From Gammaproteobacteria bacterium (GTDB lineage Bacteria; Pseudomonadota; Gammaproteobacteria; SZUA-140): a DNA stretch of 64,000 nucleotides. A program made the translations under genes and the position numbers. The stretch lies in the NCBI GenBank assembly GCA_016716465.1, contig JADJWH010000001.1:365414-429413 (forward strand), written 5' to 3'. Position 1 is the stretch's first letter. Each line of letters opens with the position of its first letter. Shown in pieces: positions 26,208 through 64,000 of the stretch. Below the pieces are notes generated by a model. It saw only the letters and a program-made list of their open reading frames with translations, made no database searches and was not told where the DNA came from.

Positions 26208-26775
26208 ACAACGAATGTTGTCTGTCCTCGTGCCCGCATTGTTACTCGCGATAGGCGGGGGTTCTTCCGCATTGGCGGATCTGACAGTGATTTATGACAG
26301 CGGCCAAACCCAACCTTTGTCGCCGTTACTTGGTCCGTTCCAGGCGGATGAAACGCCGTCGACCGATCCTGCCAAAGCAAGCGAACCGAATCCATCGTCC
26401 AAATCTATGCTCGGCCCAGCAGTATTGAGTAACTTGTTGCCGTTGCACTCACCCGGATTGGAGGTCGGCGATAGTGGTGACACTCCACTGAATCCCGAGG
26501 TGCTGACGCGGCTCGCGCAGGGTAATCCGCGCCCGTTTTTTTTAATCGGATCGGACGCGGTGTCATTGCAGTGGCTGGCCTATCACCGGGACACACTCCG
26601 GCGCCTGGGTGCGGCGGGCATGTTGGTGCAGGCCGATACCGAGGCCGACGTTAGACGGGTTGCCGAGGTGGCGCAGGGCTTATCCATCACCCTGGGTTCA
26701 GGGAGTGATCTGGCCGCGGCGCTGGCTATTCATCATTACCCGGTATTGATTAGCCGTGATGGCATCCGACAATGA
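26194..26775 (+). CDS. ICE conjugative-region protein (TIGR03765-like)
   Basis: Signal peptide. Synteny. Confidence 0.4.
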   Translation: MSIRKQRMLSVLVPALLLAIGGGSSALADLTVIYDSGQTQPLSPLLGPFQADETPSTDPAKASEPNPSSKSMLGPAVLSNLLPLHSPGLEVGDSGDTPLNPEVLTRLAQGNPRPFFLIGSDAVSLQWLAYHRDTLRRLGAAGMLVQADTEADVRRVAEVAQGLSITLGSGSDLAAALAIHHYPVLISRDGIRQ

Positions 26776-41615: not shown

Positions 41616-42018
41616 TGTGTTGATGGTCGGCTGCGCCAGCACCAAGGAGTCGGTGTTACCACAGGACGGTCCCACCATGAAGTCCATCTACGATCAGCAC
41701 ATGGTTGATGTTCAGAAACCTGACTATCGACGGGCCATGGGTGGTCAGCCGTTACCTCAAACAGGCATCGATCATTATCGGGGTTTCGTGCGAGAAGCCG
41801 CCAATGAGATCGACACGATATTTCCTCGCCTGCCGAATCCCACCCTGGTGATGTACATCTTTCCTCACCTGTCAGGCAGTGAGCGCACTCCGGTACCGGG
41901 CTATGTCACCACCTTTCCCTTTTACGAGAAGGTGGAGTACGCCTTACCTGGGGAAGTGCCGGGGGAAGTGTCCGGTGAGGTGCCGGCCGCGGTCGTACCT
42001 TCGCCCGACGAGCAGTAG
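41560..42018 (+). CDS. ICE conjugative-region lipoprotein (TIGR03751-like)
   Basis: MKRIFSNKRRLPLALVSISVLMVGCAS lipobox. Confidence 0.55.
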   Translation: MKRIFSNKRRLPLALVSISVLMVGCASTKESVLPQDGPTMKSIYDQHMVDVQKPDYRRAMGGQPLPQTGIDHYRGFVREAANEIDTIFPRLPNPTLVMYIFPHLSGSERTPVPGYVTTFPFYEKVEYALPGEVPGEVSGEVPAAVVPSPDEQ

Positions 42019-42025
42019 GACACTC

Positions 42026-44752
42026 ATGACGAATTCAAAATTCCCGGATAATTCGGACGCTTCGCCCTTAACGTCCGATTCGGTAAAACAGCACTATCAG
42101 CGCCCGCCGTCGTTTACCGACCTGTTGCCCTGGATGGAATACCTCCCCGAGAGCAAAACCTTTCTGTTGGAGGACGGCGTCAGTCTGGGAGCCTTGTTCG
42201 AGGTACTGCCGGTCGGTTGCGAAGCGCGCACGCCGGCGTTTATGACACAGTTGCGCGATGCTATTCAAATCGCTATCAACGAGGCCATTCCCGAGCGCGA
42301 TGATGCGCCCTGGGTGTTACAGATCTATGTGCAAGATGAGCCCAAGCTAACCCAATTGAATGCGTTGCTGGCCAGTTATCCGTCGCCGACGGTTCGTGCA
42401 TCGGATTATTCCCAGCATTACCAGTCGGTGATGTCGAAGCACTTGCAGGCGATTTCTCGACCGGGTGGGTTGTTTGACGATACCACCGTCACCGGTTCGC
42501 GTTGGCAGGGGCAGCAACGTCGGATCCGTGTAGTGCTCTACCGTCGTCTGATAAGTAATGGCAAATCCCCAGCCGCTATAGAGGTGGAGGAGGCGATCAA
42601 CGATGTGGCGACCAAATGGATCGCCTCATTGGCCTCTGCCGGGATAAAGGTCCAGCGTGCCAATGGTCAGGCGTTTTATCAGTGGTTGCTGAGCTGGTTC
42701 AATCCCAATCCACCGTTAGCAGACGGTAATCCGGAAGCACTTCTGCAGTTGGCGCCATACCCGGGCGATGAAAACTTACCGTTCGGCCATGACTTTGCTG
42801 AACAACTGACCCTCTCGATGCCACGCTCCGACGAGGCAACAGCGAGTTGGGTTTTCGATAATATGCCGCACACTGTAGTGACCATCCAAAGCTTACGGCG
42901 GGCACCGGACATTGGGCACTTCACGGCGGAGCGCCAGGCCGGGGATCAGGTGTTTTCGCTATTTGATCGTCTGCCCGAGCACACTATCATGGCGATCACA
43001 CTCACTCTCAAGCCGCAGGACACCACCCGCAATCACATCGCCCAGATCAAACGCGCATCGGTGGGTGATTCCGCTGAAGCGTCGATTACCCGGGAAGATG
43101 CGGAACAGGTGGAGCGGGAGATGGCCCAGGGCAACAAGCTGTATCCCGTGAGCATGGCCTTCTATGTGCGGGGCGATAATCAAAAGGCGCTGCGTAACAA
43201 TTTGAATCGACTCCATGCGCTGCTCTTACCCAATGGCCTGCAGCCCATTGCCCAGGAAGCGGACTTGCTGTCGCTCGACAGCTATATCCGCAACTTGCCC
43301 ATGGCCTATGACGCAGACCTGGACAAATCCCGTCGTCGCTCGCGGCTGATCTTCTCTCGCCACATTGCCAATTTACTGCCGTTCTACGGTCGTTCCCGTG
43401 GGACCGGTCATCCGGGCCTGGTGTTCTACAACCGAGGTGCCGAACCTTTGGTCTTCGACCCGCTGCATCGGGATGACCGTAAGAAAAATGCCCACATGCT
43501 GATCCTGGGGCCGACGGGTGCGGGGAAGTCGGCGCTACTGGTGTATCTGCTGCAGCAGATGATGGCACGGCACCGGCCACGTATTTTTATCATCGAGGCC
43601 GGTGCTTCGTTTTCGCTGTTGGGACAGCATTTTGCGCACCACGGTCTTTCAGTAAACCAGATAACCCTGAACCCCAATGTCGATGTCAGTCTGCCGCCCT
43701 TTGCCGATGCGCTTCGACTGCTAGATCGGCGCCATGCGTTTAATCCGCTTAGTGTCGATGAATCCACAATGGAGGAGACGTTAGACGAAGATGATGAGAT
43801 CGAGGAGGAAGGGGTCGGTCGCGATATTCTCGGTGAGATGGAGATTGCTGCACGTATCATGATTACCGGTGGCGATGAACGCGAAGACGCGCGATTGACC
43901 CGGGCCGATCGACTGCTGATCCGCAATGCCATATTCCTTGCCGCAAAAACCGTGAAAGAGACCAGCCGAACCCAGGTAATTACCCAGGATGTGGTCAACG
44001 CCTTTCAGACCATCGCCACCAACAGGGAATTGCCCGGACACCGGCGTAATCGTGCGCTGGAAATGGGCGATGGTATGGCGCTGTTCTGCTCGGGCCTGGC
44101 GGGCCACTTCTTCAACCGACCGGGACAGTCCTGGCCGGAGGCCGATGTCACTATCCTCGAAATGGGCATGCTGGCCAGAGAGGGCTACGAGGATCAGCTC
44201 ACCGTCGCCTACCTGTCGATGATGAGTCACATCAACGACCTGGTGGAACGTCACCAACACGACGATCGGCCCACACTGGTGGTCACTGACGAAGGGCATA
44301 TCATTACCACCAATCCCTTGCTGGCCCGTTACGTGGTCAAGATTACCAAAATGTGGCGCAAGCTCGGCGCCTGGTTCTGGATTGCCACCCAGAATCTGGA
44401 GGACTTTCCCGATGCCAGCCGCAAGATGCTCAACATGATGGAGTGGTGGCTGTGCCTGGTAATGCCGAAAGAGGAAGTGGAGCAGATTGCCCGCTTTAAG
44501 GACCTCAATGATGAGCAACGCAACTTGCTGCTGTCCGCCCGCAAAGAGCCCGGTAAATACGTTGAGGGTGTTGTGCTGGCCGACAAAGTCGAAGCCCTGT
44601 TTCGCAATGTACCACCAGCTTTGTCACTCGCGCTGGCGATGACCGAAAAGCACGAGAAAGCAGAGCGCGCTGCCATTATGCGAGAGAAAAACTGCTCGGA
44701 GCTGGAGGCCGTTTACGAAATCGCCCGGCGCATCGAACAGGCTCGTGCGTAG
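42026..44752 (+). CDS. traC: conjugative transfer ATPase TraC/VirB4-like
   Basis: Walker A ILGPTGAGKS. ~900 aa. Confidence 0.85.
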   Translation: MTNSKFPDNSDASPLTSDSVKQHYQRPPSFTDLLPWMEYLPESKTFLLEDGVSLGALFEVLPVGCEARTPAFMTQLRDAIQIAINEAIPERDDAPWVLQIYVQDEPKLTQLNALLASYPSPTVRASDYSQHYQSVMSKHLQAISRPGGLFDDTTVTGSRWQGQQRRIRVVLYRRLISNGKSPAAIEVEEAINDVATKWIASLASAGIKVQRANGQAFYQWLLSWFNPNPPLADGNPEALLQLAPYPGDENLPFGHDFAEQLTLSMPRSDEATASWVFDNMPHTVVTIQSLRRAPDIGHFTAERQAGDQVFSLFDRLPEHTIMAITLTLKPQDTTRNHIAQIKRASVGDSAEASITREDAEQVEREMAQGNKLYPVSMAFYVRGDNQKALRNNLNRLHALLLPNGLQPIAQEADLLSLDSYIRNLPMAYDADLDKSRRRSRLIFSRHIANLLPFYGRSRGTGHPGLVFYNRGAEPLVFDPLHRDDRKKNAHMLILGPTGAGKSALLVYLLQQMMARHRPRIFIIEAGASFSLLGQHFAHHGLSVNQITLNPNVDVSLPPFADALRLLDRRHAFNPLSVDESTMEETLDEDDEIEEEGVGRDILGEMEIAARIMITGGDEREDARLTRADRLLIRNAIFLAAKTVKETSRTQVITQDVVNAFQTIATNRELPGHRRNRALEMGDGMALFCSGLAGHFFNRPGQSWPEADVTILEMGMLAREGYEDQLTVAYLSMMSHINDLVERHQHDDRPTLVVTDEGHIITTNPLLARYVVKITKMWRKLGAWFWIATQNLEDFPDASRKMLNMMEWWLCLVMPKEEVEQIARFKDLNDEQRNLLLSARKEPGKYVEGVVLADKVEALFRNVPPALSLALAMTEKHEKAERAAIMREKNCSELEAVYEIARRIEQARA

Positions 44753-45723: not shown

Positions 45724-46161
45724 GTGAATGCCGCAAAGGTCTATTTCATTATCTCGATGGTTCTAACGGGCACGCTAAGTGCGCCGGCCATAGCCGGCGA
45801 GGCAGCACCTGCGATTGAGGTATTTACCGATTCGACGTTTCAGGTTGTCAGTGTTTCCGACAATACAACCGTCTATGTTATGGACCGCATTAACCAGCTG
45901 CAGCAAGCACTCTCCGAGGACTTGCCGAGTGACCCGGAAAATGCCAAACAGTTGGTCCTGGCGAGATTTCAACGAATGGATGCCCAGCTCAGTAGTGAAC
46001 TCGAGAACGCTGCCAAGGGACTGGCGCAGGCGATGCAGTACGGCATCAATCGATACCCGGCCATCGTCTTCGATGGTGACGCGGTGGTTTACGGCGTGAC
46101 CGATGTCACAGCCGCAACCCAGATCTATCAGCGATGGCAGACAAGGGGAGCGCGGCAGTGA
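45724..46161 (+). CDS. ICE conjugative-region periplasmic protein (TIGR03757-like)
   Basis: Signal peptide. Synteny. Confidence 0.45.
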   Translation: MNAAKVYFIISMVLTGTLSAPAIAGEAAPAIEVFTDSTFQVVSVSDNTTVYVMDRINQLQQALSEDLPSDPENAKQLVLARFQRMDAQLSSELENAAKGLAQAMQYGINRYPAIVFDGDAVVYGVTDVTAATQIYQRWQTRGARQ

Positions 46162-47180
46162 AAAAATGTTTGCGTTACGGTGCATTGATCCTGCTGCTGT
46201 GGATGCCGCTGATTGGCAACACGGGCACAATCACCACGCCGCAAATCATCGCGCAAACTACGAGCGCGGCACTGAGCTGTATGCGCTGGATGCCGGTGGG
46301 TATCTGCTTCTGGCTGCGTTGTTCTTTGTCCGGTTGCAGTGTCGAAACCTCTCTCAAAGTCGGCCACTACCAGCCGGACGCTGTGGTAAGCAGCTATAAC
46401 GAACTCGGTGGTAATCCCTGGGTCGAGATTCGCAGTACTCTGGGTGTAGCGCAACAATCAGCGGCTAACGGGCTGTTGGGAAGCTTGTTACCCGTACCCA
46501 TTGACAGTGCCGGCAACAGAACGGAAGGCGGGCAGGGCAACAAGGATCACCGCAATCTGGTTTTCCGGGAAACGGATGTGATCGGCCACCCGGTCAGCTC
46601 CCTGTCGAGCATCGTTGCCAGTACGGGTTATCTTTGCAATTCACAAACCACGTCATTCTTCCCGTATTTTCTCTCTGGCCTTGATGCGCTCTCCTGGCGG
46701 ATGGAAATCCCGGAGATGTTCTATCCCGCGAGCCTGATACCCGGTTTGCGTGAGATCGGCACCTGGCCACTGCAGACCTGGGGCGGCGTCTATCCCCGCA
46801 CCGGCTGGACCACCCAGTCCGAAGAGCCGAAGGCGGCGGCCATCAATGCGCAACGGGCGGGTGACATCGCGACCCGCACCGGCCAACCCCATATCTACGT
46901 GGCGATAACCGGTGGCTCCAGTTCCGGCCAAAGAGTCTGGCCGCCAGGCCCTCTGGTCGAAGACGATCCCGCTACGGGTGAGTGGCAGATGCTGCTTCCC
47001 AAGTCGGAAGCGACCTGCAAGGTGTTCGGTACCAACGATCTGGCCAGTCTCAGTGGCTGGGGTGGTGGTCGTGTCGACGCCCAAGGCGATTACGCCTGGA
47101 ACCTGTGGCGCCCCTACAGCTGCTGTCAGGATCGCGGCATCTTTCTGTTCAACGTTGACTGGATCAATTACCCACCATGA
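46134..47180 (+). CDS. TraU-like conjugative protein (TIGR03756-like)
   Basis: Signal peptide, Cys-rich, size ~340 aa. Synteny. Confidence 0.5.
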   Translation: MADKGSAAVKKCLRYGALILLLWMPLIGNTGTITTPQIIAQTTSAALSCMRWMPVGICFWLRCSLSGCSVETSLKVGHYQPDAVVSSYNELGGNPWVEIRSTLGVAQQSAANGLLGSLLPVPIDSAGNRTEGGQGNKDHRNLVFRETDVIGHPVSSLSSIVASTGYLCNSQTTSFFPYFLSGLDALSWRMEIPEMFYPASLIPGLREIGTWPLQTWGGVYPRTGWTTQSEEPKAAAINAQRAGDIATRTGQPHIYVAITGGSSSGQRVWPPGPLVEDDPATGEWQMLLPKSEATCKVFGTNDLASLSGWGGGRVDAQGDYAWNLWRPYSCCQDRGIFLFNVDWINYPP

Positions 47181-48517: not shown

Positions 48518-48881
48518 CCTCCGGGCTAAGCGAAAAGGCTTTCTGCTATTGACTAGCTTGGCCGCCCTGTTGACAGGGCTGGTCGGTTTTCTACTCATGC
48601 ACCGGCTGCAGACTGAATCCGTGCAATCCGTCCAGCACAGTCTCGATGTCTGGCGGATGGCTTTGATGCTTATTCGCTGGACATTGATCACCCTTGTTGC
48701 ACTCAGTTGGAATCATCTTATTGGTTGGTTGGCGAGTGTAGGCACGATCAACCGCGAGAAAGTTGCTTCACTAACAGAGATGCGCTGGCGCGCCGTCACC
48801 TGGCTGGTGTTATTGGAACTGGTGTTAGGGCAGGGGGTGCTGGTTAAGGCAGTGAGCCTGGCACTTGGAGCAGTGCCATGA
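48501..48881 (+). CDS. small ICE membrane protein
   Basis: TM helices. GTG start overlapping the previous gene. Confidence 0.35.
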   Translation: MGVFNNLRAKRKGFLLLTSLAALLTGLVGFLLMHRLQTESVQSVQHSLDVWRMALMLIRWTLITLVALSWNHLIGWLASVGTINREKVASLTEMRWRAVTWLVLLELVLGQGVLVKAVSLALGAVP

Positions 48882-50443
48882 GCGTCGACAGCTATCTGGA
48901 ACTCTTTACTTCCCTTTTCGGTTGGACCTTCTACGGCATTCTCTGGGATGTGTTGGTCGGTACCGGCATCGTCTATTTGCCGTTCCTGGGGATTCTGATC
49001 GACAACTGGCGCGAACCAGCGCAGGGCGGTGAGGTCGGTCATGCCAGCGGTCTCTCGCTGCGGCGCATGGAGATCGAGCTGTTTATCGCGTTACTGGTGG
49101 TGGTGCTGGCCGGGCAACCCGCTGCCCTCACGCCACTCAATGCCGGCACCTTGTCCTATTCCCCACCACCAACGCTATTGGATCCAACGCCGGCTGCAGC
49201 GACGGTGGCTGTTCCGCAGAGCACCTACGGCACAACGGGCTTCACCGGTACCGCCGCAACCGTTAATGTTCCCGTCTGGTGGTACGGGGTGATTGCACTC
49301 AGCTCGGGCTTAAATCACGCCATTGTCGAAGGCCTGCCGACCGTGGCGGATATGCGGACGTTCGAGCAGCAGGCGCATTTGGCCACCATTGCTGATCCAC
49401 GCCTCAGGCAGGAAGTGAGCGAGTTCTTCAGCCAGTGCTACATTCCGGCGCGTTCCAAATACCAGGCTGAACGACCAAACACAGCGGCCATCAATGGCAT
49501 TCTCACCACGTACGGGGTCGATGACCCGGATTGGATGGGCTCCCACGTCTATCGGGACACCTCGGGCTATTACGACACCCTGCGCCCAGCCAGCCCAATC
49601 ACTGGATGGGCATACATCGCGGCCAGAGATACGGAGTATGACGCCACCTCCCCACCGGCCTGGGGCAAACCCCACTGCAAACAGTGGTGGGAAGACGCGG
49701 CCATTGGATTGCGGGGAAAGCTGGTTACTGAGGCAGATGCCACCTCGGCCGGCTTCTCCGGACTGGTAGTCGCCATCGCGCCCGCTCTGGCCAGCGAACA
49801 GCAAAACGACGCCGTCGCCAAAACCGTACTGACCAACGCGCCGCCCTCCTGGTCGAACAATGAGTTAATCGCCAACAACGCATCCGGAGCAGGGTTGGTC
49901 AACACCGCCGGATCTATCATCAAAGGTGGTCTCGCCACCGGTGGTGTGATCACCGCATCAGCCCTGTTTTCCGTAACCATGACGGCCGTCTTACAATCAC
50001 TGCCCATGGTGCAGGCCATTATGCTGTTGGGTATCTATGCACTGCTGCCATTGGTGGTGGTTTTGTCCCGCTACTCCATTGCCATGATGGTGGTGGGCGG
50101 CATGGCCATCTTCACCATCAAGTTTTGGACGGTACTTTGGTACCTGGCAATGTGGGTGGATCAAAACCTGATTCTGTCCATGTATCCCGACGTTAACGTT
50201 TTCCTGCAGATCTTCGCCAACCCTGGCGAACACGATGCCAAGCGCATGCTGCTGAATATGATTACCACCAGCCTCTATCTGGGACTGCCGCTGTTGTGGA
50301 GTGGGATGATGGCGTGGGCGGGGGTGAAAGTCGGTAGGTCGATTGAGTCGGCAGCGAACCCGATCAAGGCGCCAGCGCAGGATGCTGGCAATCAGGGAGG
50401 AAGTATCGGCAAGATGGTGCTGACCAAAGGTAAGAAACGTTAG
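48878..50443 (+). CDS. traG: TraG N-terminal-domain conjugal transfer protein
   Basis: Multiple TM helices. Synteny as the last T4SS gene. Confidence 0.55.
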   Translation: MSVDSYLELFTSLFGWTFYGILWDVLVGTGIVYLPFLGILIDNWREPAQGGEVGHASGLSLRRMEIELFIALLVVVLAGQPAALTPLNAGTLSYSPPPTLLDPTPAAATVAVPQSTYGTTGFTGTAATVNVPVWWYGVIALSSGLNHAIVEGLPTVADMRTFEQQAHLATIADPRLRQEVSEFFSQCYIPARSKYQAERPNTAAINGILTTYGVDDPDWMGSHVYRDTSGYYDTLRPASPITGWAYIAARDTEYDATSPPAWGKPHCKQWWEDAAIGLRGKLVTEADATSAGFSGLVVAIAPALASEQQNDAVAKTVLTNAPPSWSNNELIANNASGAGLVNTAGSIIKGGLATGGVITASALFSVTMTAVLQSLPMVQAIMLLGIYALLPLVVVLSRYSIAMMVVGGMAIFTIKFWTVLWYLAMWVDQNLILSMYPDVNVFLQIFANPGEHDAKRMLLNMITTSLYLGLPLLWSGMMAWAGVKVGRSIESAANPIKAPAQDAGNQGGSIGKMVLTKGKKR

Positions 50444-50670
50444 TCGTTTTCGTACCAGCCGGTAGCATCGGTGCCGTCATCGAGTTTCCCTGTTCTGTAA
50501 TTCAGGGCTCCGCCTCGAACAGCACTGGAGACTGCATCATCAGACGTGGTGTCAGCGCTTTCAGCCAGCATACCAAGCATACTGCGCAGTAACTGGCCGA
50601 CCGCTGCAAAAATAGCGAAGACGGCTAGCAATATCTTTTGCAAACGAGGCCTTTCTTTTACTGTTGTCAC
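50440..50670 (-). CDS. small single-TM protein, last gene of the minus-strand defence operon
   Basis: Its ATG overlaps the stop of the DUF499 gene (ATGA coupling). Hydrophobic helix [15 protein letters not shown]. Confidence 0.45.
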
Positions 50671-53516
50671 GACTCTTCCTCAAATTCCGCAGAGCTAAAT
50701 TTCAACACATTACAATTCTCTTTGACAGTTCGCTGCATTGATTCATTGAATCCGTCCTGGCTATTGGCCTCAATCTCCACGGATATCCTGACATTCACGC
50801 CGAGCTTGGCAGTGAACTGCTGTACGACTTCATCCATGATGGTGGCAAAGTCCATTTTGGCTTTGACCGGGTCGAGCGAAATAGTGCCGTAGAACTGCTT
50901 CTTGGTTGCTGGTGGTGTAGTTGTGCCCGCACCTCCTGACCCACCGGGCGATGGGGTTGGTGTTCCCGTGCCGCCCGTTCCACCAGCTGGTGTTGTTGTG
51001 CTTCCGGATTCACCGCCCACACCACCGGGCTCAGGGCTAGGCTGAGGTGCTTGTTGCGTACGCTCGCGGTAAGCGACGGCTGTCTCGCGATCTATCAAGA
51101 GAGAAGATTCATCCACTGTGGCTATAGAACTACGTCCGAACGTGAACCCGAGGTAACGGTCGCCTTCCTTGGCGGAGGCGAAGGCAAAGTAGTCTTCGCT
51201 TTCCACGCCCTGGGTGATGGCATTACGGAAAACGCTATCGTTAACAAGCCGTGGCAGGTACAGGTAGTGACAACAGTCCTGCCAGACCTTCAACGCACTG
51301 ACGTCGTTTATGCCTTCTTTCAGGTACCATTGCTTAAGTACATTGCGAAGGTGAATAGGAGACCACTCGTAGATCATCCACTCCTCTTCCCGCAATTTCT
51401 CCTCGATCGCCTGAATCAAGTTGGGCGCTGCGGGGGAGACGGAAACGACTTCCCAATTGAGAGTCGGCTTGCCCTTTATGAACTCTTCTACGGGGGCGAT
51501 TAACCATTTGTAAGTTTCACGCACCAGTTGGGCAAGCGACTGATCTGCACCATCGCGGTTACGCTTGGCCTGATTCAAATGAGACAAATCCTGATTCAAG
51601 TGGCCATTTTCGATATCTGTGGCAATGGACTGCCACGCCAGGAAAATGCGGGCCTGCTCCTTGAGCCGGCCAACCACATCGTAGTCGGGAGCGAGGAAAA
51701 TCAGGCGATTTTGTTTCTGCCGTGGTTGATCGCCGCGGTTGCGCAAAATCTCTTCTGCGGCAGAAAATGCCTGGTTGGTCTCACTGCGACTGTAGGCCGT
51801 GTTTGTCGGCAACACGACCAGTCGCGGGCCCGTGCCATAGTCATCTGGGACATCGACGGACGGTGTAAAGACATGCACGCCACCGAACTGATGATTGCGC
51901 CCGAAAACCTGGGTGACTCGTGTTTTTAACAATGGCAAAAGTTCATCACGTTCGTTGATGTTCTGCTTGCGGCTCTCCATTTCCCGGCGCAGGTTGGGTT
52001 TGGTATCCAGCCAGAATCGGTCTTTGTCGGAATAAAGATAATGCAGTCGATCACGTAAGCGCTTGAGCACGTCTTCAAATACACCGAGCGTTTGACCGGG
52101 TTGTGCCGCGCCCAGCAGGATGCGTTCGACCTGAACGCCGCGAATCATTTGCTCAGTGGTTGATGGTGCGCTGCCGAGAAAAATGGTCCGGGCAGTGCGG
52201 CGTGCGGCTTGCACGCTGCCGAACAGGGTGTGGTGGCCATCGATGTCATAGGGCGCCGAGCGGGTGCCATCCACTTCCCGTTCAATCACGGGCTCCCACC
52301 CTTGAGGAAGGTAGTGAATGCTCTTGTTGCGCACGTTGCCATCTTCCAGTGGTAATGAGCCAGGCATGATCAGCGCGTCTTTGTTATCTGAATTCCATAG
52401 GCGGTGGATAACAATGGCCATATATTGAAGTACGCCACGGGTGCGCTGGAATTTTTCAAGTGTGGACCAGTCCTCGTACAAGCGATCGAAAATCTCCGGG
52501 TGGATCGGGTAAGACCGGCAAAGGCGCTCAAAGTACTCGTTGGATTGTGTTTCGACTGGAAACTTTTCGGCGTTCTGACGATAAAAGTCAGAGAACTGAC
52601 GGCTGATACCCTCCACCTCTGCGCGTTCACCCGGGTTCTCAAACAATCTGCGACGCACAATCTCGAACGCTTCCTCGGTGCCTACCGGCTTCCAGACGGA
52701 CTCAACTCGTGCGAAGTACTTCTCCAGCGAGTTAAGGGCGCGCTGGCCCATGGTGCCTCCGGCTTCCACCTCCGATTCAGGCAGTGAGGCTAATAGAATG
52801 GCGTTGGGCACAGCCTTCAGGGCTTCGGTGAGCGCCTGGATAAAACTGACGTTGCTATCGAATGTGCCAGCCTTATATTGCTTGCCAAGCTCCAGTTGGC
52901 GAATAAACGCCACCAGCTCATCCACCAGAATCACGCATGGGGCTGCCTTGCTGATCAACTCGGTGAGAACCTCTTTTCCGGGAGAGGTGCCGTCAGCGTC
53001 GCTGTCGGCGACCATCTGATAACCCTCATCCCCCAGCAGTTGCCAGGCCAGCTCGCCCCACAGTGTGTTGGCCGTTACGCTCCCGTACTTCCTGGGCTGG
53101 CTGGGCGACAGTTTTATGCCGTCGATTACCGCCACTCTGGCCGAGGGAAGACTCTGAATACCTGCTTCGTCCAATACCGGAGGAATGCCCGTGAGTTTGT
53201 CGGTGCCCACCTTGCGCGAGGCCAGGTGAAACACGGCCAACAAGGTATGGGTCTTGCCGCCACCGAAGGCTGTTTGCAATTGAATGACCGGGTCGCCACC
53301 AAGCCCGGCCAACCGCTGCGCTACGGAGATGAGCAACAGGCGCATGCCTTCAGTGATATAGGTGCGTGAAAAAAACATCTCCGCATCCTGATACTCTGCA
53401 GTGGCTGTGCCATTGGCTACCTGAGTGATGTCAGCCGCAAACTCGGACTGCTTGAAGGTGCCTTCCAGAACATCCTTGTGCGGTGTGGCAATTTCTCGCC
53501 AGGGTTTCAAACTCAT
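50667..53516 (-). CDS. DUF499 (COG1483) AAA-type ATPase
   Basis: N-terminus [30 protein letters not shown]-loop [13 protein letters not shown]. 949 aa. Confidence 0.8.
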
Positions 53517-53526
53517 GCTTTAGTCC

Positions 53527-56436
53527 TCAAAAATCCAGTCCGAGCTCGGCTTGCGAGCCGCTGTGGCCAACCTCGTGGGAGGCGGTGACAATGGCGTGCC
53601 AGGAACCGATCAATTCGTTGTAGGCGCGGGCATCTTCGGCCCACTTTTTGCGTTCGCACAGGGTGTACAGGTGATAGGCGAGCTGTCGAATGGGTTCGCC
53701 TTTCTCTGGCATCTTGGCCAGTAGTTCGCCAGCGGCGGATTCACCTTGGTTATTAAGACTGCGAATCATCTGGTGGCAGGCTTCCCAGACAGGGGTGCGG
53801 TTGTCTGTAATGGGGTCCCAGTCGGCTTCGTACTCCGCCCATTTCAACAGGCGAACCTTGCCGCCACCGGAATCGACGACCCCGGCTGTATCTACGCCAT
53901 CTACCGTTGTGCCCTTTGCTTGCGCCAGCACGTTCGCTTCACCAAAGGGGCCAATACTCCAGCCGTACTGATCGAACCAGCTGGAGCAGAATTGTGTGTC
54001 GGCATCGAAGCTGCCGGAATCCGGGCTGAGATATTCCGTGATGGCGCGATTTATCAGGATGAGTGCATCATGTACGCTCATCCGTGAGCCATCCTGGTTC
54101 AGTACGGCTTCGTATTTAGAGTAGATGGCCATACCTGGTCCAATCGCGGCCTGGGCTAAATCCACGGGAGCGATGGGTGTGGTACCTGTTTCTCCGCCAA
54201 TCATGGCTTCTAATGCGTCGGGCATCTGTTCACGCAGTTCACGTTGGAAGTCGCGGCGTGAAGCAGAGTCGGCTTCGATTTCACGTTTTTTACATACCAA
54301 AACAACAGATGAAGCGAGAGCATTGGCGCCCGATCCGACCATTCGATTTGCCATTTCAGTGCGCATGGGCCAAGTACCATCAATGGAGAAGCCTGCGCGA
54401 ATAACCGCTTCCAAAAAGGTTTCCCAACCTGTACTTGCAGTGCTGCCTTCTTTGGTTTCCGCCTGCTTAAAAGCGTAATAAATAGTGACGGGAAAGGCCG
54501 GATGACCTTTCTCCGCCAAATTGTGTATTGCCAGAGTCATACCATCTAAAAAGAAGGTTTCAGCCTTTTCTTTGCTTCCGTGCCGATATGGCGTGGCTAC
54601 TAATTCTTCAGCTTTTGGCACGGCCATAGTTAAAAACAAGTCAGGATAAATGGCCCTTAACGACCGGCGCATCCATACATAGAAAAAGTCGGACAAATCT
54701 GCATAACCAATATTGTCATAGTAGGGTGGGTCGGTTGAGATGATTTTATTAATGCTAGTGTTCTGTGTGGCGGCGTCTTGCTGATGAGCGAAACCAAGAC
54801 TATTGGCTGGAGTGTTCGCTAATGCCTTAGATGTCCAATCCGTCATTGCAATCCAATTTCCTGAGGAGTTGCAAAAGGGGTTAGCTTCAACGTAATCCCA
54901 AGTCATGGGAATAGCCTGCCTGCCGAAAGTATTTCGAATAAGTTCTTTGCTCGAGTGCCAGCTACAAATTGATGACCAATAATCTGAAACTTTGTCTGAT
55001 ACAAAGCCCAAATAAACAGCCAAAGCATCTCCGTAAGCGGTCGCACCTTTGCCTCCAGCATTAATACCTATTCCATCGTCTGTCATGCCGGTTGCTTTGG
55101 CATCAGCGATGGCTTTATCGCGGGCTTCCTGCACCAGGTCGGAGAAGGTAGTCAAGGCCACCAGTTGGCGGGGTGTGAAGAGGTCGCCGTATTTACTCAA
55201 ACCATACAGTTGAGTTCTGATATCTCGTGGATTGTGGTTAATCTCAGTTTCCGGTCGCCAGCTTGGCATTGCAGAATTAGCAACTGCTTCTATCTCATCT
55301 GTTGGAGATAGATAGACCCGACCAGATTTTCCTTCCACGACGATCGCCATCAATCGTTGTTTAAATGTGCCTGCCTGCCCCTGTCTTCTGATCTCGGTTA
55401 CGGGGATGGGTGTTTCTGAGACAAGACATTTGAAGTTGCCGCCACGCCCAATTTTTGTACCATCTTTGGCCTCCGCTGGCGGCTTTCCTGCCCGTACCTT
55501 AAAAACATAGCTGTCACTCTCAACTACAGGCACCACATAGGCTTCGTTACCTTTTTTGCTCGATAGAACGAAACTGGAGGCCAGAGGCACATCCACGTGG
55601 CTGAAAGCCGGGTTAGGGCTTTTTACGGTTCTGGCCCAGAGCCAGGCGATAACAGTCAGTACCTGTCCCTGATAAGGTTTCAGGTCGGGTCGTTCAGCGA
55701 CCATCTCTGGCGTGATCTTGATCGTGGGGTAGAGATTACCGATACGCCTGAACGCTTCCTCCCGCATCCAGTGGCCGTAACGACGCACATCCTCGGCCAT
55801 TCCTCTGGCGCCTGACCAGTCATCCATCAGGTTGTCTTGCTTCTCGCCTTTGGGCGGAGGACCTACTGGTCCTTGCCCGGCAAACTTCGGTGGGATCTCA
55901 ATCATGGCTTTGTTGATCATCACGGCCACTGGATTTAAGTCACTGGCATAGCTTTCTAATCCCAGTCGCTGCGCCTCCAGTGGGATCGCCCCTCCGCCGG
56001 CAAATGGATCATGAAAGGCCGGGAGTTTGTCCGGGTTGAACAGTTCTGCTGCTTGGGGGTGATTGCGGTTTAGATAACACGTTTCACGCCAGCTTTCCCA
56101 TATCGCGTCACGAGCCCGACTCAGTACTTCCTGATTATTGATGTTTTCCCACTTCACCAGGTCACGGATTATCTGAAAGAGCTTCTCGCGTTTGATCTCG
56201 GCCTCTTTCTTGTTAACCCCATACTTGAAGCCTTCTCCCTGCTGGTATCCGGGATCATTGACCATTTGCGCAAACAACACAGCCCTTGCTGCTGCCAAAG
56301 GTCGGCGCGCCCACCACAGATGTAAGGTTGATGGATGACCGTGCCGAATTGACTTTTCTCGCGCGGCCGCTGCATTGATGTCATCCAGCGGAAGTGCGAC
56401 CTCAATCAGTTTTTTTGGTGTTTTTATTTCGGCCAT
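53527..56436 (-). CDS. DUF1156-domain N6-adenine DNA methyltransferase (COG1743)
   Basis: N-terminus [36 protein letters not shown]. Motif I DPFAGGGA, motif IV DPPY. Confidence 0.85.
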
Positions 56437-56445
56437 TGATAAACC

Positions 56446-60017
<3,572 letters not shown>

Positions 60018-60021
<4 letters not shown>

Positions 60022-60923
60022 GAGCCCTCCGTGGCGACGCGGTTGTTCTGGTTGTAGCCGGGAGCGATGATCAGATTTTCCACGCCGTACAGCGCTTGTC
60101 TGTTCTTGAGCCAGAGGTGGTACTCCGGGCCTTCCAGGCTATGCTCTGCTGAGCAATCGACATTCCAGCGCCGGAGGACGTAACCGGCAACGGCAGCCCG
60201 AACATTGACCTTCAGTACGCCGTTTTCCATGGCGTAATCTGTTTCGATGGTCTTCGGGTGTTTCAGGCTGGGATGGGGGACGATTTCCAGCTCGACCACG
60301 CGATTCCATTGGATGTCGGATTCCCGACCTTCGTGCTCTTTTACCGGCCCGTCCAGAATTTCCGGATCTGAGATGCGGGTGACAACAAAATCCGCGAATC
60401 TTGACTGCTTCCGGTCATAGCCACGGACATGCCAGCGCAAACCATTGTCAACCAATACGAAGGGTACGATCTCGCGCGTAGTTCGGCCGCTGCTCAGAGA
60501 GCGATACACGATTTTGCTCGGCTTGTGCTGATGAATGGCGCGGGTCAGTGCTGACAAGGTATTCAGGTCAGGGTGATTGAGCTGCGCCGGGGCTTCACAA
60601 GCCACCAGCGCCTTGTGCTTCCCCACGAAGTCGTCGCCGAACCCATATGCGAGCGCTGCCATGGCCTGGCTGGGCGAATAATCGAACAACGGCTCAAAGG
60701 ATGTGCCCCGTATGTAGACCTTGGCCTTGGTGTCATATTCCAGATTTTCCGGGGCGAGATCCTTGTACAAAGTGATGTCTCTGGTTGCCGCAGCCTCCTT
60801 GATGCCGAAGCGGCTCACGAGGTCGTTTCGGCCAATAGTCCCCAAGAAATGCGCCTTGAAATCGATGTGCGATAGCCGCTCTTTTTGCGTTTGGTTGATA
60901 TCCAATGGGATGGCCTTGGGCAT
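60018..60923 (-). CDS. WYL-domain protein (BrxR/CapW-like putative regulator), first gene of the cassette
   Basis: [48 protein letters not shown] fits the WYL consensus. Its stop overlaps the helicase start. Confidence 0.6.
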
Positions 60924-60968
60924 GCTTGCTTCCGGTGTGGCTCGATTCGGATTCAGTCTTGCGCCTAT

Positions 60969-61030
60969 GATATTAAAGATATTAGAAGCATGTCAATATG
61001 ATTTGTTGACATCATCAATATGATTATGAT
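60969..61030. promoter_or_regulatory. Divergent promoter region with direct repeats TCAATATGATT (60993 and 61015) flanking TTGACA, and GATATTA x2
   Basis: Read directly. Lies between the WYL operon and the KAP NTPase gene. Confidence 0.4.
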
Positions 61031-61282
61031 CAAATACGCGGGATTATCTGTTGCGTTTAGCCGGGCGCTAAAGGTCACCCGACTGATTTTTCCTGGGGCG
61101 AGTTATGAGTTTTCGAGAGGCGAGCGGAGGGGCAAGAAAAGGTTGGCGGGCAGCGCAGTGGGTGCGCTCACGTTCTACTTGTCCCCGCTCCATTGTGACT
61201 AGCAACTGCTGTTGTGTATAGCATCGTTGGCGTGATCGTCGGTAGTTCATACGAACCTGATTAATCAATAGGAATTGCATGG

Positions 61283-63130
61283 ATGTGGCCAGATAACGAA
61301 ACAGAACGTGATTACCTGAATTTCGGTGGGGTGGCCGAGACGGTTGCTGAAATCACCGTGCAGGCCCAAGGCAGGCCGATTTCTATTGGAGTATCTGGCG
61401 CTTGGGGCGTTGGCAAATCATCAATGATAAAGCTGATTCGCACTGCCCTTACCGAAAAGGACAAAAGTGAGCCAGCCCGATTTATCTATGTGGAGTTCAA
61501 TGCGTGGCTTTATCAAGGCTACGACGATGCCCGAGCAGCGCTACTTGAAGTTATTGCAACTAAATTAAATGAAGAAGCTGAAAAGCGAAAAAGCGGTGTC
61601 GACAAGGCGAAAGAGCTTTTGCATCGCGTCAACTGGCTGCGCGCAGCCAAACTGGGCGCTGGTTCAGCGCTCGCACTCGCGCTGGGGCTCCCACCAACAG
61701 GCTTGATCGGTGACGTAGTTAGAGTTGGCCGGAAGGTGATTGGAGAAGGGGCCGGTGCAGAAGAAGCACAGGAAGCGGCCGACGCAGTATCAGAAGTAAT
61801 TACGACTACAGAAGGCCTAATCAAGGCGAAGCCAGAACTGTCTCCGCCGCGCGAGATCCATGCTATTCGTGAATGCTTTGAGCAGACGTTAGCCGAGATG
61901 GGGGTAACGCTCGTTGTGCTCATCGACGACCTGGATCGCTGTCTTCCACCTACCACGATCTCCACGCTCGAAGCTATTCGGCTGTTTCTCTTCCTGGACA
62001 ACACGGCATTTGTAATCGCAGCCGACGATGCAATGATTAAACATGCGGTCCGACAGCATTTTGGGGAAGTTGATGACGACTTGGTTATTAACTATTTCGA
62101 CAAGCTTATCCAGATCCCCATCCGTGTTCCTCCTCTTGGTACGCAGGAAGTTCGAGCCTATATGATGCTTCTGTTTATCGAGACTACCGATATAGACGAT
62201 ACCCTCAAGGAAGGAATCCGTGAGGCGGTTTGTTCCCAACTTGCCAAAAGTTGGCGTGGCGAGCGTGTAGACCGGGCATTCATTCAGTCAGTTTATAAAG
62301 AAGCGCCGCCGGAGCTGGTGGCGCGTTTTGACACTGCCGATCGCCTCGCTCCCATCATGGTTAGCGCCAGTCAAATCTCTGGAAACCCACGATTGGTCAA
62401 GCGTTTTCTAAACGCGCTCTCAATCAGAATGGCAATCTCGCGTGCTCATGACGTAGGCGTTGATGAAGCGGTATTGGCGAAGATGTTGCTGTTCGAGCGC
62501 TGCGGTAATCCCAAGGCTTACGATGCTTTGATCGCAGCTGTGAACAATGATCCCGAAGGCAAGCCGGTCTTCCTGGCTGAATGGGAGCAGAAAGCTACTT
62601 CTGGCGCAGAGGTTGAGCTGGAGCCGCTTTGGAACGATCGCTTTATTCGAGAATGGCTCACGATCACACCACCGCTCGCTGACACAGATCTGCGAGGAGT
62701 GCTTTATGTCAGCAGAGAGCATGCACCACTGATTACACCGGAAGACCGGTTGTCATCAGAAGGAGCAGAACTACTAACGGCTATCCTCACAAGTCCTGAT
62801 ATGGCGGCGAGTCTGCATGATCGTCTTGCGGTGCTGGCACGTCCAGAGACCACCGTAATTATGGACCGCATACTCGAACAGGCGCGGCGCGAGCAGGAAT
62901 GGGGTACGCCGGCGATCCTGGATGCGTGTATCGCCGTTGCCAAGGCCGATCCGTCACTTGGGACGCGCGTCGCAGGCTTCTTGAGCGAGCGACCTCTTGG
63001 CCAAATTAAGCCAGGTATCGTACCCAAAATCAGCGACCAGCAGTGGGTTGCTGAAGTGTTTGCGCGATGGAAGGACGCTGACGTGAGCGCTCCCGTTAAA
63101 AAGGCAATTGAAGCTGTGGAGAAGAGCTGA
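61283..63130 (+). CDS. KAP-family P-loop NTPase
   Basis: Walker A GVSGAWGVGKSS. Hydrophobic insert GAGSALALALGLPPTGLIG between A and B. Walker B LVVLIDDLDRC. Confidence 0.8.
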   Translation: MWPDNETERDYLNFGGVAETVAEITVQAQGRPISIGVSGAWGVGKSSMIKLIRTALTEKDKSEPARFIYVEFNAWLYQGYDDARAALLEVIATKLNEEAEKRKSGVDKAKELLHRVNWLRAAKLGAGSALALALGLPPTGLIGDVVRVGRKVIGEGAGAEEAQEAADAVSEVITTTEGLIKAKPELSPPREIHAIRECFEQTLAEMGVTLVVLIDDLDRCLPPTTISTLEAIRLFLFLDNTAFVIAADDAMIKHAVRQHFGEVDDDLVINYFDKLIQIPIRVPPLGTQEVRAYMMLLFIETTDIDDTLKEGIREAVCSQLAKSWRGERVDRAFIQSVYKEAPPELVARFDTADRLAPIMVSASQISGNPRLVKRFLNALSIRMAISRAHDVGVDEAVLAKMLLFERCGNPKAYDALIAAVNNDPEGKPVFLAEWEQKATSGAEVELEPLWNDRFIREWLTITPPLADTDLRGVLYVSREHAPLITPEDRLSSEGAELLTAILTSPDMAASLHDRLAVLARPETTVIMDRILEQARREQEWGTPAILDACIAVAKADPSLGTRVAGFLSERPLGQIKPGIVPKISDQQWVAEVFARWKDADVSAPVKKAIEAVEKS

Positions 63131-63975
63131 TGGGCACTTCGTCGTCGAGCTCCGGCTCTCCTTCTGGCACGCCTATGGTGCCGCCTTGGGTGCCAGACCC
63201 GGTGCCACCTGTCGATGGCCCCGGTGATGACGAGAGTGCGCCGCCGGAAAGCGACGCGCCAGATGAGGCAGTGCAGCAGCCAGCCCAGCCTGTACCCATA
63301 GCCCCTCCTGCACGTTTTGGCGGTGCGCGCACTAGGCTCGGCCGCTTTGCTCGCACAGGCTTAGCCGACGATATGCGAAAAGGCGTAGGGCACTACGTCC
63401 ACAAAGGGCTGGGTGGTAGTGGCACGGCAGTGCGCCGCCTTGGTGGTACCGCCCGCACTGCCGGCACGCTGTTTGGTGCGTTATCAGCGGCAGCCGCAGG
63501 CCAGGCATCAGGCCCGGGAAATGAGCTGAACCCGACTGTTCTCGCTGGTCGCAGTGCTGACGAAATAATGAGCGCCGTCGTTGAGGCTGTGCGTCCCGTA
63601 GACGGCACGCAAGACGGTGAGGCCAGTCGCGCCGCTATCGGCAAAGCACTTTCCGAGCTGCTTACACAGTTTCCGGACGCCGACCTGCTCAACCTGTCAG
63701 AGACGCAACGGGTGCTTGCAGTTGAGCGCTTTATTGCATGGGACGTGTTCAACCGATTTGAGCTTGATCTTGGCAAGACGATTCAGGAAAAAGCACCAAG
63801 TGTTGCGAGCGCTCTTTCCCGCCTTAAAGAAGTGAGGGACTTCATTACGCAAACGGTCGCAGCGAGTTTCAGAAAGCTGTCGACCGACGCAACCGCTCTT
63901 GGCAGCAACAAGGTTGCCGCAATTGTCCGAGATGCACTAGGGCTGGCAATTGGTGTATTCGAGGGGTATCTGTAA
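63130..63975 (+). CDS. hypothetical protein translationally coupled to the KAP NTPase, disordered Ser/Pro-rich N-terminus
   Basis: Its ATG overlaps the KAP stop (TGATG). No motif. Confidence 0.5.
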   Translation: MGTSSSSSGSPSGTPMVPPWVPDPVPPVDGPGDDESAPPESDAPDEAVQQPAQPVPIAPPARFGGARTRLGRFARTGLADDMRKGVGHYVHKGLGGSGTAVRRLGGTARTAGTLFGALSAAAAGQASGPGNELNPTVLAGRSADEIMSAVVEAVRPVDGTQDGEASRAAIGKALSELLTQFPDADLLNLSETQRVLAVERFIAWDVFNRFELDLGKTIQEKAPSVASALSRLKEVRDFITQTVAASFRKLSTDATALGSNKVAAIVRDALGLAIGVFEGYL

Positions 63976-64000
63976 ATGAGAATTATCTGTGGTCCCTCCA

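What the first reader, a model, noticed from the sequence alone, without database searches (positions are those of the whole stretch)
61283..63975. KAP-family NTPase translationally coupled to a disordered-N-terminus partner: a possible second uncharacterised defence pair
The KAP hallmarks are present: Walker A GAWGVGKSS, a hydrophobic insert between Walker A and B, and Walker B VVLIDDLDRC. The downstream 281-aa protein starts at the KAP stop (TGATG). It has a Ser/Pro/Asp-rich N-terminal ~70 aa and no identifiable domain. KAP NTPases occur in several predicted immune systems. This pair is next to the R-M-like cassette at the cargo end of the ICE.
Basis: partly seen in the sequence, partly recalled or inferred. 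Interest (0 to 1): 0.6.

Follow-up and report, generated by a model that had tools for sequence, protein, structure and literature searches.

The report
First half of QatABCD phage defence
The two genes are qatA and qatB, the first half of the already described four-gene QatABCD anti-phage system, whose third gene (qatC) starts in the last 25 bases of the window, so this is an ordinary copy of a known system and not a new two-gene defence pair.

Summary
They are not an uncharacterised pair. The 615-aa protein matches PADLOC QatA end to end (E 1e-149). The 281-aa protein passes the NCBIfam QatB cut-off and matches the crystallised QatB proteins of P. aeruginosa and E. coli (E about 3e-17). Its N-terminus, MGTSSSSSGSPSGTPMVPPW, carries the MGTS/Gly2 motif and the Pro/Trp positions shown to be essential for Qat defence. 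A third ORF starts at 63976, directly after the qatB stop (TAAATG). It reads MRIICGPS, which is the QatC N-terminus. Nitrosococcus oceani ATCC 19707 has the same locus (QatA 614/615 and QatB 279/281 identical, DNA 96.8%), followed by qatC and qatD, both above the NCBIfam cut-offs. Of 48 related genome loci with enough downstream DNA, 44 keep the order A-B-C-D. QatB's documented functional partner is QatC, a QueC-like enzyme that takes QatB's N-terminal glycine into its active site, not QatA. The neighbouring "R-M-like cassette" is a complete HmaABC system with a BrxR-type WYL regulator. Verdict: already known, low interest.

The parts
61283..63130 (+). qatA, 615 aa: KAP-family P-loop NTPase (residues 16-383) plus a QatA-specific C-terminal domain (residues 384-615)
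   Evidence: Pfam KAP_NTPase 1.2e-64. PADLOC QatA PDLC02210 at 1.1e-149, covering 1-589 of the protein and 1-591 of 593 profile positions. NCBIfam QatA 456.7 bits, below the 600 cut-off. 614/615 identical to N. oceani ABA57180.
61397..61420 (+). Walker A, GAWGVGKS (residues 39-46, Lys45)
61637..61720 (+). Ala/Gly/Leu-rich stretch LRAAKLGAGSALALALGLPPTGLIGDVV inside the roughly 165-residue segment between Walker A and Walker B. It is moderately hydrophobic and not a clear transmembrane helix.
   Evidence: Kyte-Doolittle 19-residue maximum 1.48. P. aeruginosa QatA was purified as a DNA-binding hepta- or octamer (PMC13279940).
61913..61930 (+). Walker B, VVLIDD (residues 211-216)
63128..63132 (+). 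TGATG: the qatA stop overlaps the qatB start by one base
   Evidence: Start/stop overlaps of 1, 14, 20 or 23 nt occur in most related loci.
63130..63975 (+). qatB, 281 aa: disordered N-terminal tail plus an alpha-helical domain
   Evidence: NCBIfam QatB 141.4 bits, above the 100 cut-off. PADLOC QatB 1.4e-36. PDB 9zee_A QatB 2.9e-17 and 9vll_A 3.2e-17. 279/281 identical to N. oceani ABA57181.
63130..63141 (+). MGTS motif. Gly2 is the expected acceptor after Met1 removal.
   Evidence: Read directly from the sequence. Among 59 related loci where a QatB start could be called, 50 read MGTS and three more carry MGTS at an internal Met just downstream of the start the script picked. G2D abolishes defence in the P. 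aeruginosa and E. coli systems.
63178..63189 (+). VPPW (residues 17-20). It aligns with the conserved Pro16/Trp18 segment of P. aeruginosa QatB, whose deletion abolishes defence.
   Evidence: Alignment. Conservation across loci (VP[MLI]VP[PS]W). PMC13279940.
63130..63315 (+). Pro/Ser/Asp-rich tail of about 60 residues, predicted to be disordered
   Evidence: Composition. No secondary structure for residues 1-60 in the low-confidence model. The homologous tails are unresolved in the crystal structures.
63976..64000 (+). First 8 codons of qatC (MRIICGPS), cut by the end of the window. The ATG follows the qatB TAA directly.
   Evidence: Logan contig L001 (7 mismatches in 1281 nt) extends it to MRIICGPSNSKFGRLR. 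N. oceani QatC begins MRIICGPSNSKFERLR and scores 342 bits against NCBIfam QatC, cut-off 280.

Best explanation
The region holds qatA and qatB, genes 1 and 2 of a canonical qatABCD anti-phage operon carried as cargo on an integrative conjugative element. qatC starts at 63976, and qatC and qatD lie beyond the window. The working model comes from the characterised P. aeruginosa and E. coli homologues and is transferred here by homology. QatB loses Met1. [quoted passage not shown] This mirrors the Cap9-catalysed deazaguanylation of the CD-NTase in type IV CBASS. The helical domain of QatB holds QatC, and QatB also tethers the TatD-family nuclease QatD. QatA is a KAP NTPase that forms a DNA-binding hepta- or octamer. 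It is not part of the QatBCD complex. It widens the range of phages restricted, or is required outright, depending on the system and the phage. It most likely acts as an NTP-driven sensor or effector on DNA. Shown here: gene identities, motifs, operon packing and conserved gene order. [quoted passage not shown] How modified QatB stops the phage is unknown in the field.
For: QatA: PADLOC QatA 1.1e-149 over the full length and Pfam KAP_NTPase 1.2e-64. QatB: above the NCBIfam equivalog cut-off, hits the PDB QatB chains 9zee_A and 9vll_A at about 3e-17 with the N-termini aligned from residue 1, and carries the MGTS and VPPW motifs. The qatC start is in the window and is extended by the near-identical contig L001. 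The N. oceani ATCC 19707 locus is 96.8% identical in DNA over window 58702-64000, with QatA 614/615 and QatB 279/281 identical. It continues with a 425-aa QatC (342 bits, cut-off 280; PDB QatC 9vlk_A at 1.6e-63) and a 242-aa QatD (322 bits, cut-off 230). 44 of 48 related genome loci with a full QatA and at least 3.4 kb downstream are colinear A-B-C-D. A published survey found 98.1% of 631 qat clusters to be full qatABCD (PMC13434339). Mechanistic data: a 1:1 QatBC complex, essential G2, and an NDG-modified GTSKAY peptide found by LC-MS/MS. QatA binds ssDNA and dsDNA and forms a hepta- or octamer.
Against: qatC beyond codon 8 and all of qatD are outside the window, so completeness of this particular copy is inferred. 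QatA scores below the NCBIfam equivalog cut-off (456.7 against 600), and RefSeq names the N. oceani protein only 'P-loop NTPase fold protein'. Several QatC-contact residues of P. aeruginosa QatB (I164, V168, Q171, N175, D181, E182) differ here, and only E179 is kept, by my reading of the alignment. QatC activity has not been reconstituted in vitro, and intact-mass analysis did not detect the modification, so the chemistry is still provisional. No experiment exists on this clade.
Confidence: 0.93

Rival explanations
1. This is a self-contained two-gene defence system (KAP NTPase plus a disordered-tail partner) that works without other genes.
For: The two genes overlap (TGATG). KAP NTPases occur in other defence candidates, and this protein gives weaker PADLOC hits to PifA (6.5e-29) and PDC-S20 (1e-21).
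Against: A third ORF follows with no gap and has the QatC N-terminus. 44 of 48 relatives carry qatC and qatD directly after qatB, and the exceptions look like decay: L029 has a truncated qatB, L034 has qatC deleted, and L011 has a truncated qatD. L048 has qatA alone. No clade with only A and B was seen. In the published survey no qatAB-only form is listed. In experiments QatB needs QatC, not QatA.
Confidence: 0.02
2. The qat operon in this genome is a decayed or truncated remnant. qatC or qatD would be interrupted or lost just beyond the window, so the pair seen here would not function.
For: 4 of 48 related loci show such decay. In N. oceani the neighbouring hmaA is split by an IS630-family insertion. 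The window itself carries a decayed HNH gene remnant just upstream of qatA.
Against: qatA and qatB are intact and full-length, and almost identical to the N. oceani copies, whose qatC and qatD are intact. The first 8 codons of qatC (16 in L001) are intact.
Confidence: 0.04
3. QatA of this clade is a membrane-inserted KAP NTPase, as in the classical KAP architecture, and it anchors or signals at the membrane instead of acting as a soluble DNA-binding oligomer.
For: An Ala/Gly/Leu-rich stretch of 28 residues lies between Walker A and Walker B, where KAP proteins carry their transmembrane inserts (the family feature is from my own knowledge of Aravind et al. 2004).
Against: Its hydropathy maximum of 1.48 is below the usual transmembrane threshold, and there is only one such stretch where KAP inserts normally have two or four. 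P. aeruginosa QatA was purified and measured by mass photometry as a DNA-binding oligomer.
Confidence: 0.1

Closest known systems
QatABCD anti-phage system (Gao et al. 2020; E. coli NCTC9009 and P. aeruginosa systems; PDB 9zee/9zef and 9vlk/9vll)
   Same: The gene order is the same: qatA (KAP NTPase), qatB, qatC, and, in the near-identical N. oceani locus, qatD. The genes are packed the same way, overlapping or abutting. QatB has the MGTS N-terminus, a disordered tail of about 60 residues with the conserved Pro/Trp segment, and a helical C-terminal domain. QatA has the KAP domain plus the QatA C-terminal domain.
   Different: This is a different clade from the crystallised proteins. The QatB match to the PDB chains is only E about 3e-17, and QatA falls below the NCBIfam equivalog cut-off. 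QatC is 425 aa here, against about 465 aa in the crystallised proteins. Here the system sits on an ICE next to Hma. No phage data exist for this clade.
Type IV CBASS Cap9-CdnD deazaguanylation (Wassarman et al. 2025, as described in PMC13279940 and PMC13376578)
   Same: A QueC-family enzyme takes the flexible N-terminal Gly2 of a partner protein into its active site. The N-terminal motifs are alike: MGTS here and MGGS in the CD-NTases.
   Different: QatB shares no fold with CD-NTases. There is no cyclic-nucleotide signalling, no Cap10, and the complex is 1:1 instead of 2:2. QatC replaces the nucleobase-recognising Tyr/Asp with Thr, so the group it attaches may differ.
Other KAP-NTPase defence proteins (PifA of the F plasmid; PADLOC candidate PDC-S20)
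   Same: They share the KAP P-loop domain (PADLOC PifA 6.5e-29 and PDC-S20 1e-21, over about residues 6-293 only).
   Different: The matches cover only the NTPase domain. The C-terminal domain and the operon partners are specific to Qat.

Membership tests
QatA (QatABCD component 1) | KAP-family P-loop NTPase domain with intact Walker A and Walker B | tested here: met
   Pfam PF07693 1.2e-64 over residues 16-383. GAWGVGKS at 39-46 and VVLIDD at 211-216.
QatA (QatABCD component 1) | Full-length match to a QatA profile, including the QatA-specific C-terminal domain | tested here: met
   PADLOC PDLC02210 497.8 bits, protein 1-589 against profile 1-591 of 593.
QatA (QatABCD component 1) | Score above the NCBIfam NF041923 equivalog cut-off (600 bits) | tested here: not met
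   456.7 bits over 1-585. The alignment is end to end but the clade is divergent. This is why RefSeq calls the N. oceani protein (614/615 identical) 'P-loop NTPase fold protein'. It is a curated naming threshold and not a structural feature. Membership rests on the PADLOC match and the operon context.
QatA (QatABCD component 1) | Encoded directly upstream of qatB in a qatABCD operon | tested here: met
   TGATG overlap with qatB. 44 of 48 relatives are colinear A-B-C-D.
QatB (QatABCD component 2) | Score above the NCBIfam NF041924 equivalog cut-off (100 bits) | tested here: met
   141.4 bits. PADLOC QatB 1.4e-36. PF28083 QatB on record for this exact protein.
QatB (QatABCD component 2) | N-terminal MGTS motif with Gly2 | tested here: met
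   MGTS at 63130-63141. It aligns from residue 1 with the PDB QatB chains.
QatB (QatABCD component 2) | Disordered N-terminal tail of 30-90 residues with the conserved Pro/Trp segment | tested here: met
   About 60 residues with 24% Pro. VPPW at 17-20 aligns with P. aeruginosa P16/W18.
QatB (QatABCD component 2) | Globular ten-helix domain with the QatB fold | tested here: inconclusive
   The single-sequence AlphaFold2 model is all-helical after residue 60 but unreliable (mean pLDDT 44.5, pTM 0.28), so no fold search was run. Sequence homology to the crystallised QatB covers residues 1-266.
QatB (QatABCD component 2) | Forms a complex with QatC, with Gly2 in the QatC active site | not testable with these tools
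   Known only for the P. aeruginosa and E. coli homologues.
QatABCD system | QueC-like qatC immediately downstream of qatB | tested here: met
   Only 8 codons lie in the window (MRIICGPS). These are identical to the start of N. oceani QatC, which scores 342 bits against a cut-off of 280. L001 extends the reading to 16 codons.
QatABCD system | TatD-family qatD downstream of qatC | not testable with these tools
   It lies outside the window, and the source contig was not retrievable. It is present in the 96.8%-identical N. oceani locus at 322 bits, cut-off 230.
QatABCD system | Confers resistance to phage | not testable with these tools
   Shown for the E. coli, P. aeruginosa and A. baumannii systems, not for this clade.
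KAP NTPase family (Pfam PF07693) | Transmembrane helices inserted within the P-loop domain (typical of the family but not universal; from my own knowledge of Aravind et al. 2004) | tested here: not met
   There is one moderately hydrophobic stretch, with a Kyte-Doolittle maximum of 1.48. This does not affect domain membership, which is met by the Pfam score.

The most novel reading that the evidence does not exclude
The BrxR-family WYL regulator (60018-60923, minus strand) may control both divergent operons, hmaABC on one side and (HNH)-qatABCD on the other. It would act through the conserved 44-nt element at 60992-61035, which holds two TCAATATGATT repeats. Hma-BrxR-Qat would then be one co-regulated, co-inherited defence island that moves between Nitrosococcus, Sedimenticolaceae and related Gammaproteobacteria. 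The evidence does not exclude this, but the only support is that the arrangement is conserved in two other genomes and that the element is 84% identical where the surrounding intergenic DNA has decayed.
Probability: 0.2. Interest if true: 0.3.

Novelty: already known. Interest (0 to 1): 0.1.

Why it matters
It matters little as a discovery. It corrects an annotation gap: GenBank calls these exact proteins 'ATPase' and 'hypothetical protein', and RefSeq annotates the N. oceani QatB as a 200-aa protein. That version lacks the N-terminal tail and the essential Gly2, which is the start-site error noted in PMC13279940. The locus adds a divergent, environmentally widespread Qat clade and shows Qat travelling on an ICE beside Hma. 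It could serve as a comparison for the open questions in the field: what QatC attaches to QatB, and what QatA does.

Tried and rejected
1. Retrieving the source contig to see qatC and qatD directly failed.
   - There was no megablast match in the E. coli genomes or in the plasmids.
   - The exact QatA protein had no gene position on record.
   - The exact QatB protein gave only a 1.3-kb Logan contig.
   - An exact 32-nt scan of metagenome contigs across the qatB/qatC junction found nothing.
   - The cluster look-up did name the proteins (MBK9130407.1 and MBK9130408.1, from a Gammaproteobacteria MAG) and led to the N. oceani locus, which I used as a stand-in.
2. The single-sequence AlphaFold2 model of QatB was too poor (pLDDT 44.5) to justify a fold search. 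I ran no further search on a better alignment, because the sequence matches to solved QatB structures already settle identity.
3. QatA has no solved homologue by sequence.
4. The local Pfam-A copy gave no hit for QatB, although PF28083 is on record for the protein.
5. I considered and rejected a transmembrane reading of the QatA insert and a general Hma-Qat linkage. Only L002 among the 72 QatA-related genome loci, plus the N. oceani locus fetched separately (L074), carry Hma next to Qat.
6. No tRNA gene lies in the window to mark an ICE boundary.
Full report
**Observation**

The two ORFs exist exactly as described: 61283..63130 (+, 615 aa) and 63130..63975 (+, 281 aa). The stop of the first and the start of the second share one base (TGATG, 63128-63132).

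The 615-aa protein has Walker A GAWGVGKS (residues 39-46) and Walker B VVLIDD (residues 211-216). It matches Pfam KAP_NTPase over residues 16-383 at E 1.2e-64.

The 'hydrophobic insert' is a 28-residue Ala/Gly/Leu-rich stretch (residues 119-146). Its best 19-residue Kyte-Doolittle mean is 1.48, short of the usual 1.6 for a membrane helix.

The first 70 residues of the 281-aa protein are 24% Pro, 13% Ser and 9% Asp.

With ORFs this long and matches this strong, chance is not an issue.

**What it is**

- **QatA.** The 615-aa protein matches the PADLOC QatA profile end to end (E 1.1e-149; protein 1-589 against profile 1-591 of 593).
  - It aligns over 1-585 with NCBIfam QatA at 456.7 bits, below that model's 600-bit naming cut-off.
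- **QatB.** The 281-aa protein is not domain-less.
  - It scores 141.4 bits against NCBIfam QatB (cut-off 100) and E 1.4e-36 against PADLOC QatB.
  - It is recorded under Pfam PF28083 QatB.
  - It matches the two crystallised QatB proteins, 9zee_A (P. aeruginosa) and 9vll_A (E. coli), at about 3e-17, with the alignments starting at residue 1.
- **qatC start.** Directly after the qatB stop (TAAATG) a third ORF begins at 63976 and runs off the window. It reads MRIICGPS.
  - A Logan contig with 7 mismatches in 1281 nt extends it to MRIICGPSNSKFGRLR.

**Related loci**

The exact window proteins are GenBank MBK9130407.1 ('ATPase') and MBK9130408.1 ('hypothetical protein'), from a Gammaproteobacteria MAG.

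Nitrosococcus oceani ATCC 19707 carries the same locus.
- DNA is 96.8% identical without gaps over window 58702-64000. QatA is 614/615 identical and QatB 279/281.
- There qatB is followed by a 425-aa protein beginning MRIICGPSNSKFERLR. It passes the NCBIfam QatC cut-off (342 against 280) and matches PDB QatC 9vlk_A at 1.6e-63.
- Next comes a 242-aa protein that passes the QatD cut-off (322 against 230).
- By my reading of the sequence printed, this QatC keeps the SGGLDS PP-loop, the cysteine cluster (SCG...HCGRCFPC) and the STRTTH segment. That segment corresponds to T278/R279/T280/H282 of the P. aeruginosa enzyme.

A scan of one genome per species returned 72 loci with relatives of this QatA.
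- Of the 48 loci with a full-length QatA and at least 3.4 kb downstream, 44 have QatB, QatC and QatD colinear on the same strand.
- The four exceptions are one locus with a truncated qatD (L011), one with a truncated qatB and no qatC or qatD (L029), one with qatC deleted (L034), and one with qatA alone (L048).
- Among 59 loci where a QatB start could be called, 50 read MGTS. Three more carry MGTS at an internal Met just downstream of the start my script picked, two read MGTN and one MGTL. Nearly all continue with VP[MLI]VP[PS]W.
- Overlap between the qatA stop and the qatB start (1, 14, 20 or 23 nt) is the rule.
- A published survey reports that 98.1% of 631 qat clusters are full qatABCD and lists no qatAB-only form (PMC13434339).

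**How it most likely works (transferred by homology)**

- P. aeruginosa QatB and QatC form a 1:1 complex. QatB and QatC alone defend against lambda-vir.
- The QatB tail (65 residues there, about 60 here) is disordered.
- G2D, or deletion of residues 16-22, abolishes defence. Deletion of variable tail residues does not (PMC13279940).
- In the E. coli system Met1 is removed, and Gly2 sits in the QatC active site at the position of the CdnD Gly2 in Cap9 (PMC13376578; PMC13639016).
- LC-MS/MS found an NDG-modified GTSKAY N-terminal peptide. Intact-mass analysis did not detect the modification, and in-vitro reconstitution failed.
- QatB also binds the TatD nuclease QatD, giving a 1:1:1 QatBCD complex. 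QatA binds none of the others.
- P. aeruginosa QatA binds ssDNA and dsDNA and forms a hepta- or octamer. It is dispensable for some phages and needed for others. All four E. coli genes are needed against lambda.
- The window QatB has every feature these papers identify as essential: Gly2, the MGTS motif, the Pro/Trp segment (VPPW at residues 17-20) and a long tail.

What modified QatB does to the phage, and what QatA senses or does, remain open in the field.

**Caveats**

- qatC beyond codon 8 and all of qatD lie outside the window. I could not retrieve the source contig, so completeness here is inferred from N. oceani and the family statistics.
- The single-sequence AlphaFold2 model of QatB was unreliable (pLDDT 44.5). 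It shows coil for residues 1-60 and helices after that, which agrees with the crystal structures but proves nothing.
- Several QatC-contact residues of P. aeruginosa QatB are not conserved in this clade (my reading). That is unsurprising at this distance.

**Context**

- The window carries an integrase (6648..7850) and T4SS genes: TraD-like 26772..28901, TraC 41879..44752, TraU 46134..47180 and TraG_N 48878..50443. This fits an ICE.
- The 'R-M-like cassette' is a complete Hma system:
  - HmaC 50667..53516, 1605 bits
  - HmaB 53527..56436
  - HmaA 56446..60021, 2221 bits
- Hma is preceded by a WYL regulator (60018..60923). Its N. oceani counterpart is typed WHD_BrxR/WYL/BrxR_CTD.
- The same Hma-WYL-Qat arrangement occurs in N. 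oceani and in a Sedimenticolaceae MAG (L002), but in none of the other loci retrieved through QatA. The linkage is therefore a local island and not a rule.

**Verdict**

This is a correctly observed but already known system, cut in half by the window edge. Novelty: already known. Interest: 0.1.

Noticed in passing
window 61115-61264 (+): A decayed 3' remnant of an HNH-endonuclease/glycine-zipper gene lies just upstream of qatA. The gene is intact (144 aa) between the WYL gene and qatA in the Sedimenticolaceae locus L002 (9545..9979). The tblastn match is 50% identical over 50 aa, with an in-frame stop in the window.
   Followed up: partly
window 60992-61035: A 44-nt element in the divergent WYL/qatA intergenic region is 84% identical to L002, although the DNA around it has diverged. 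It holds two exact 11-nt direct repeats, TCAATATGATT, 22 nt apart. It overlaps a minus-strand sigma-70-like promoter (60996 to 60967, 11 of 12 matches). It is a candidate operator of the BrxR-type WYL regulator.
   Followed up: partly
window 50667-60923 (-): The 'R-M-like cassette' is a complete Hma system (HmaC, HmaB and HmaA, each near full length against its PADLOC profile). It is led by a BrxR-family WYL gene that overlaps the hmaA start by 4 nt. In N. oceani the orthologous hmaA is split by an IS630-family insertion.
   Followed up: partly
window 31573-36957 (+): A 1794-aa ORF sits among the conjugation genes. It has a weak AAA_16 match and PADLOC matches to DUF626_VIII (7.8e-27), Avs4 (9.5e-23) and PDC-M54A. 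It may be an Avs/STAND-like defence NTPase inside the ICE backbone.
   Followed up: no
window 8466-12116 (+): A 1216-aa ORF lies next to the integrase (6648..7850) and has no Pfam or PADLOC match at the thresholds used.
   Followed up: no
window 44769-45572 (-): A 267-aa ORF between the T4SS genes, on the opposite strand, has a partial match to the N-terminal (kinase) part of PADLOC PglW (3.9e-10).
   Followed up: no
L002 14709-17809 (+): In the Sedimenticolaceae MAG, qatD is followed directly by ZacA (DUF6361) and ZacB (PLD-like). That makes the island Hma-WYL-HNH-Qat-Zac.
   Followed up: no
L074 (N. oceani CP000127.1) 10001-10846, and RefSeq WP_211138768.1: RefSeq annotates the N. oceani QatB as a 200-aa protein, while GenBank has 281 aa. 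The short version lacks the N-terminal tail and the essential MGTS/Gly2. This is the start-site misannotation that PMC13279940 describes for QatB.
   Followed up: yes
window 54013-58703 versus 58702-64000, compared with L074: DNA identity to N. oceani changes from 86.9% (hmaB and the 3' part of hmaA) to 96.8% with no gaps (the 5' part of hmaA through the qatC start). The change falls at the position of the N. oceani IS630 insertion, which suggests a recombination breakpoint inside hmaA.
   Followed up: no
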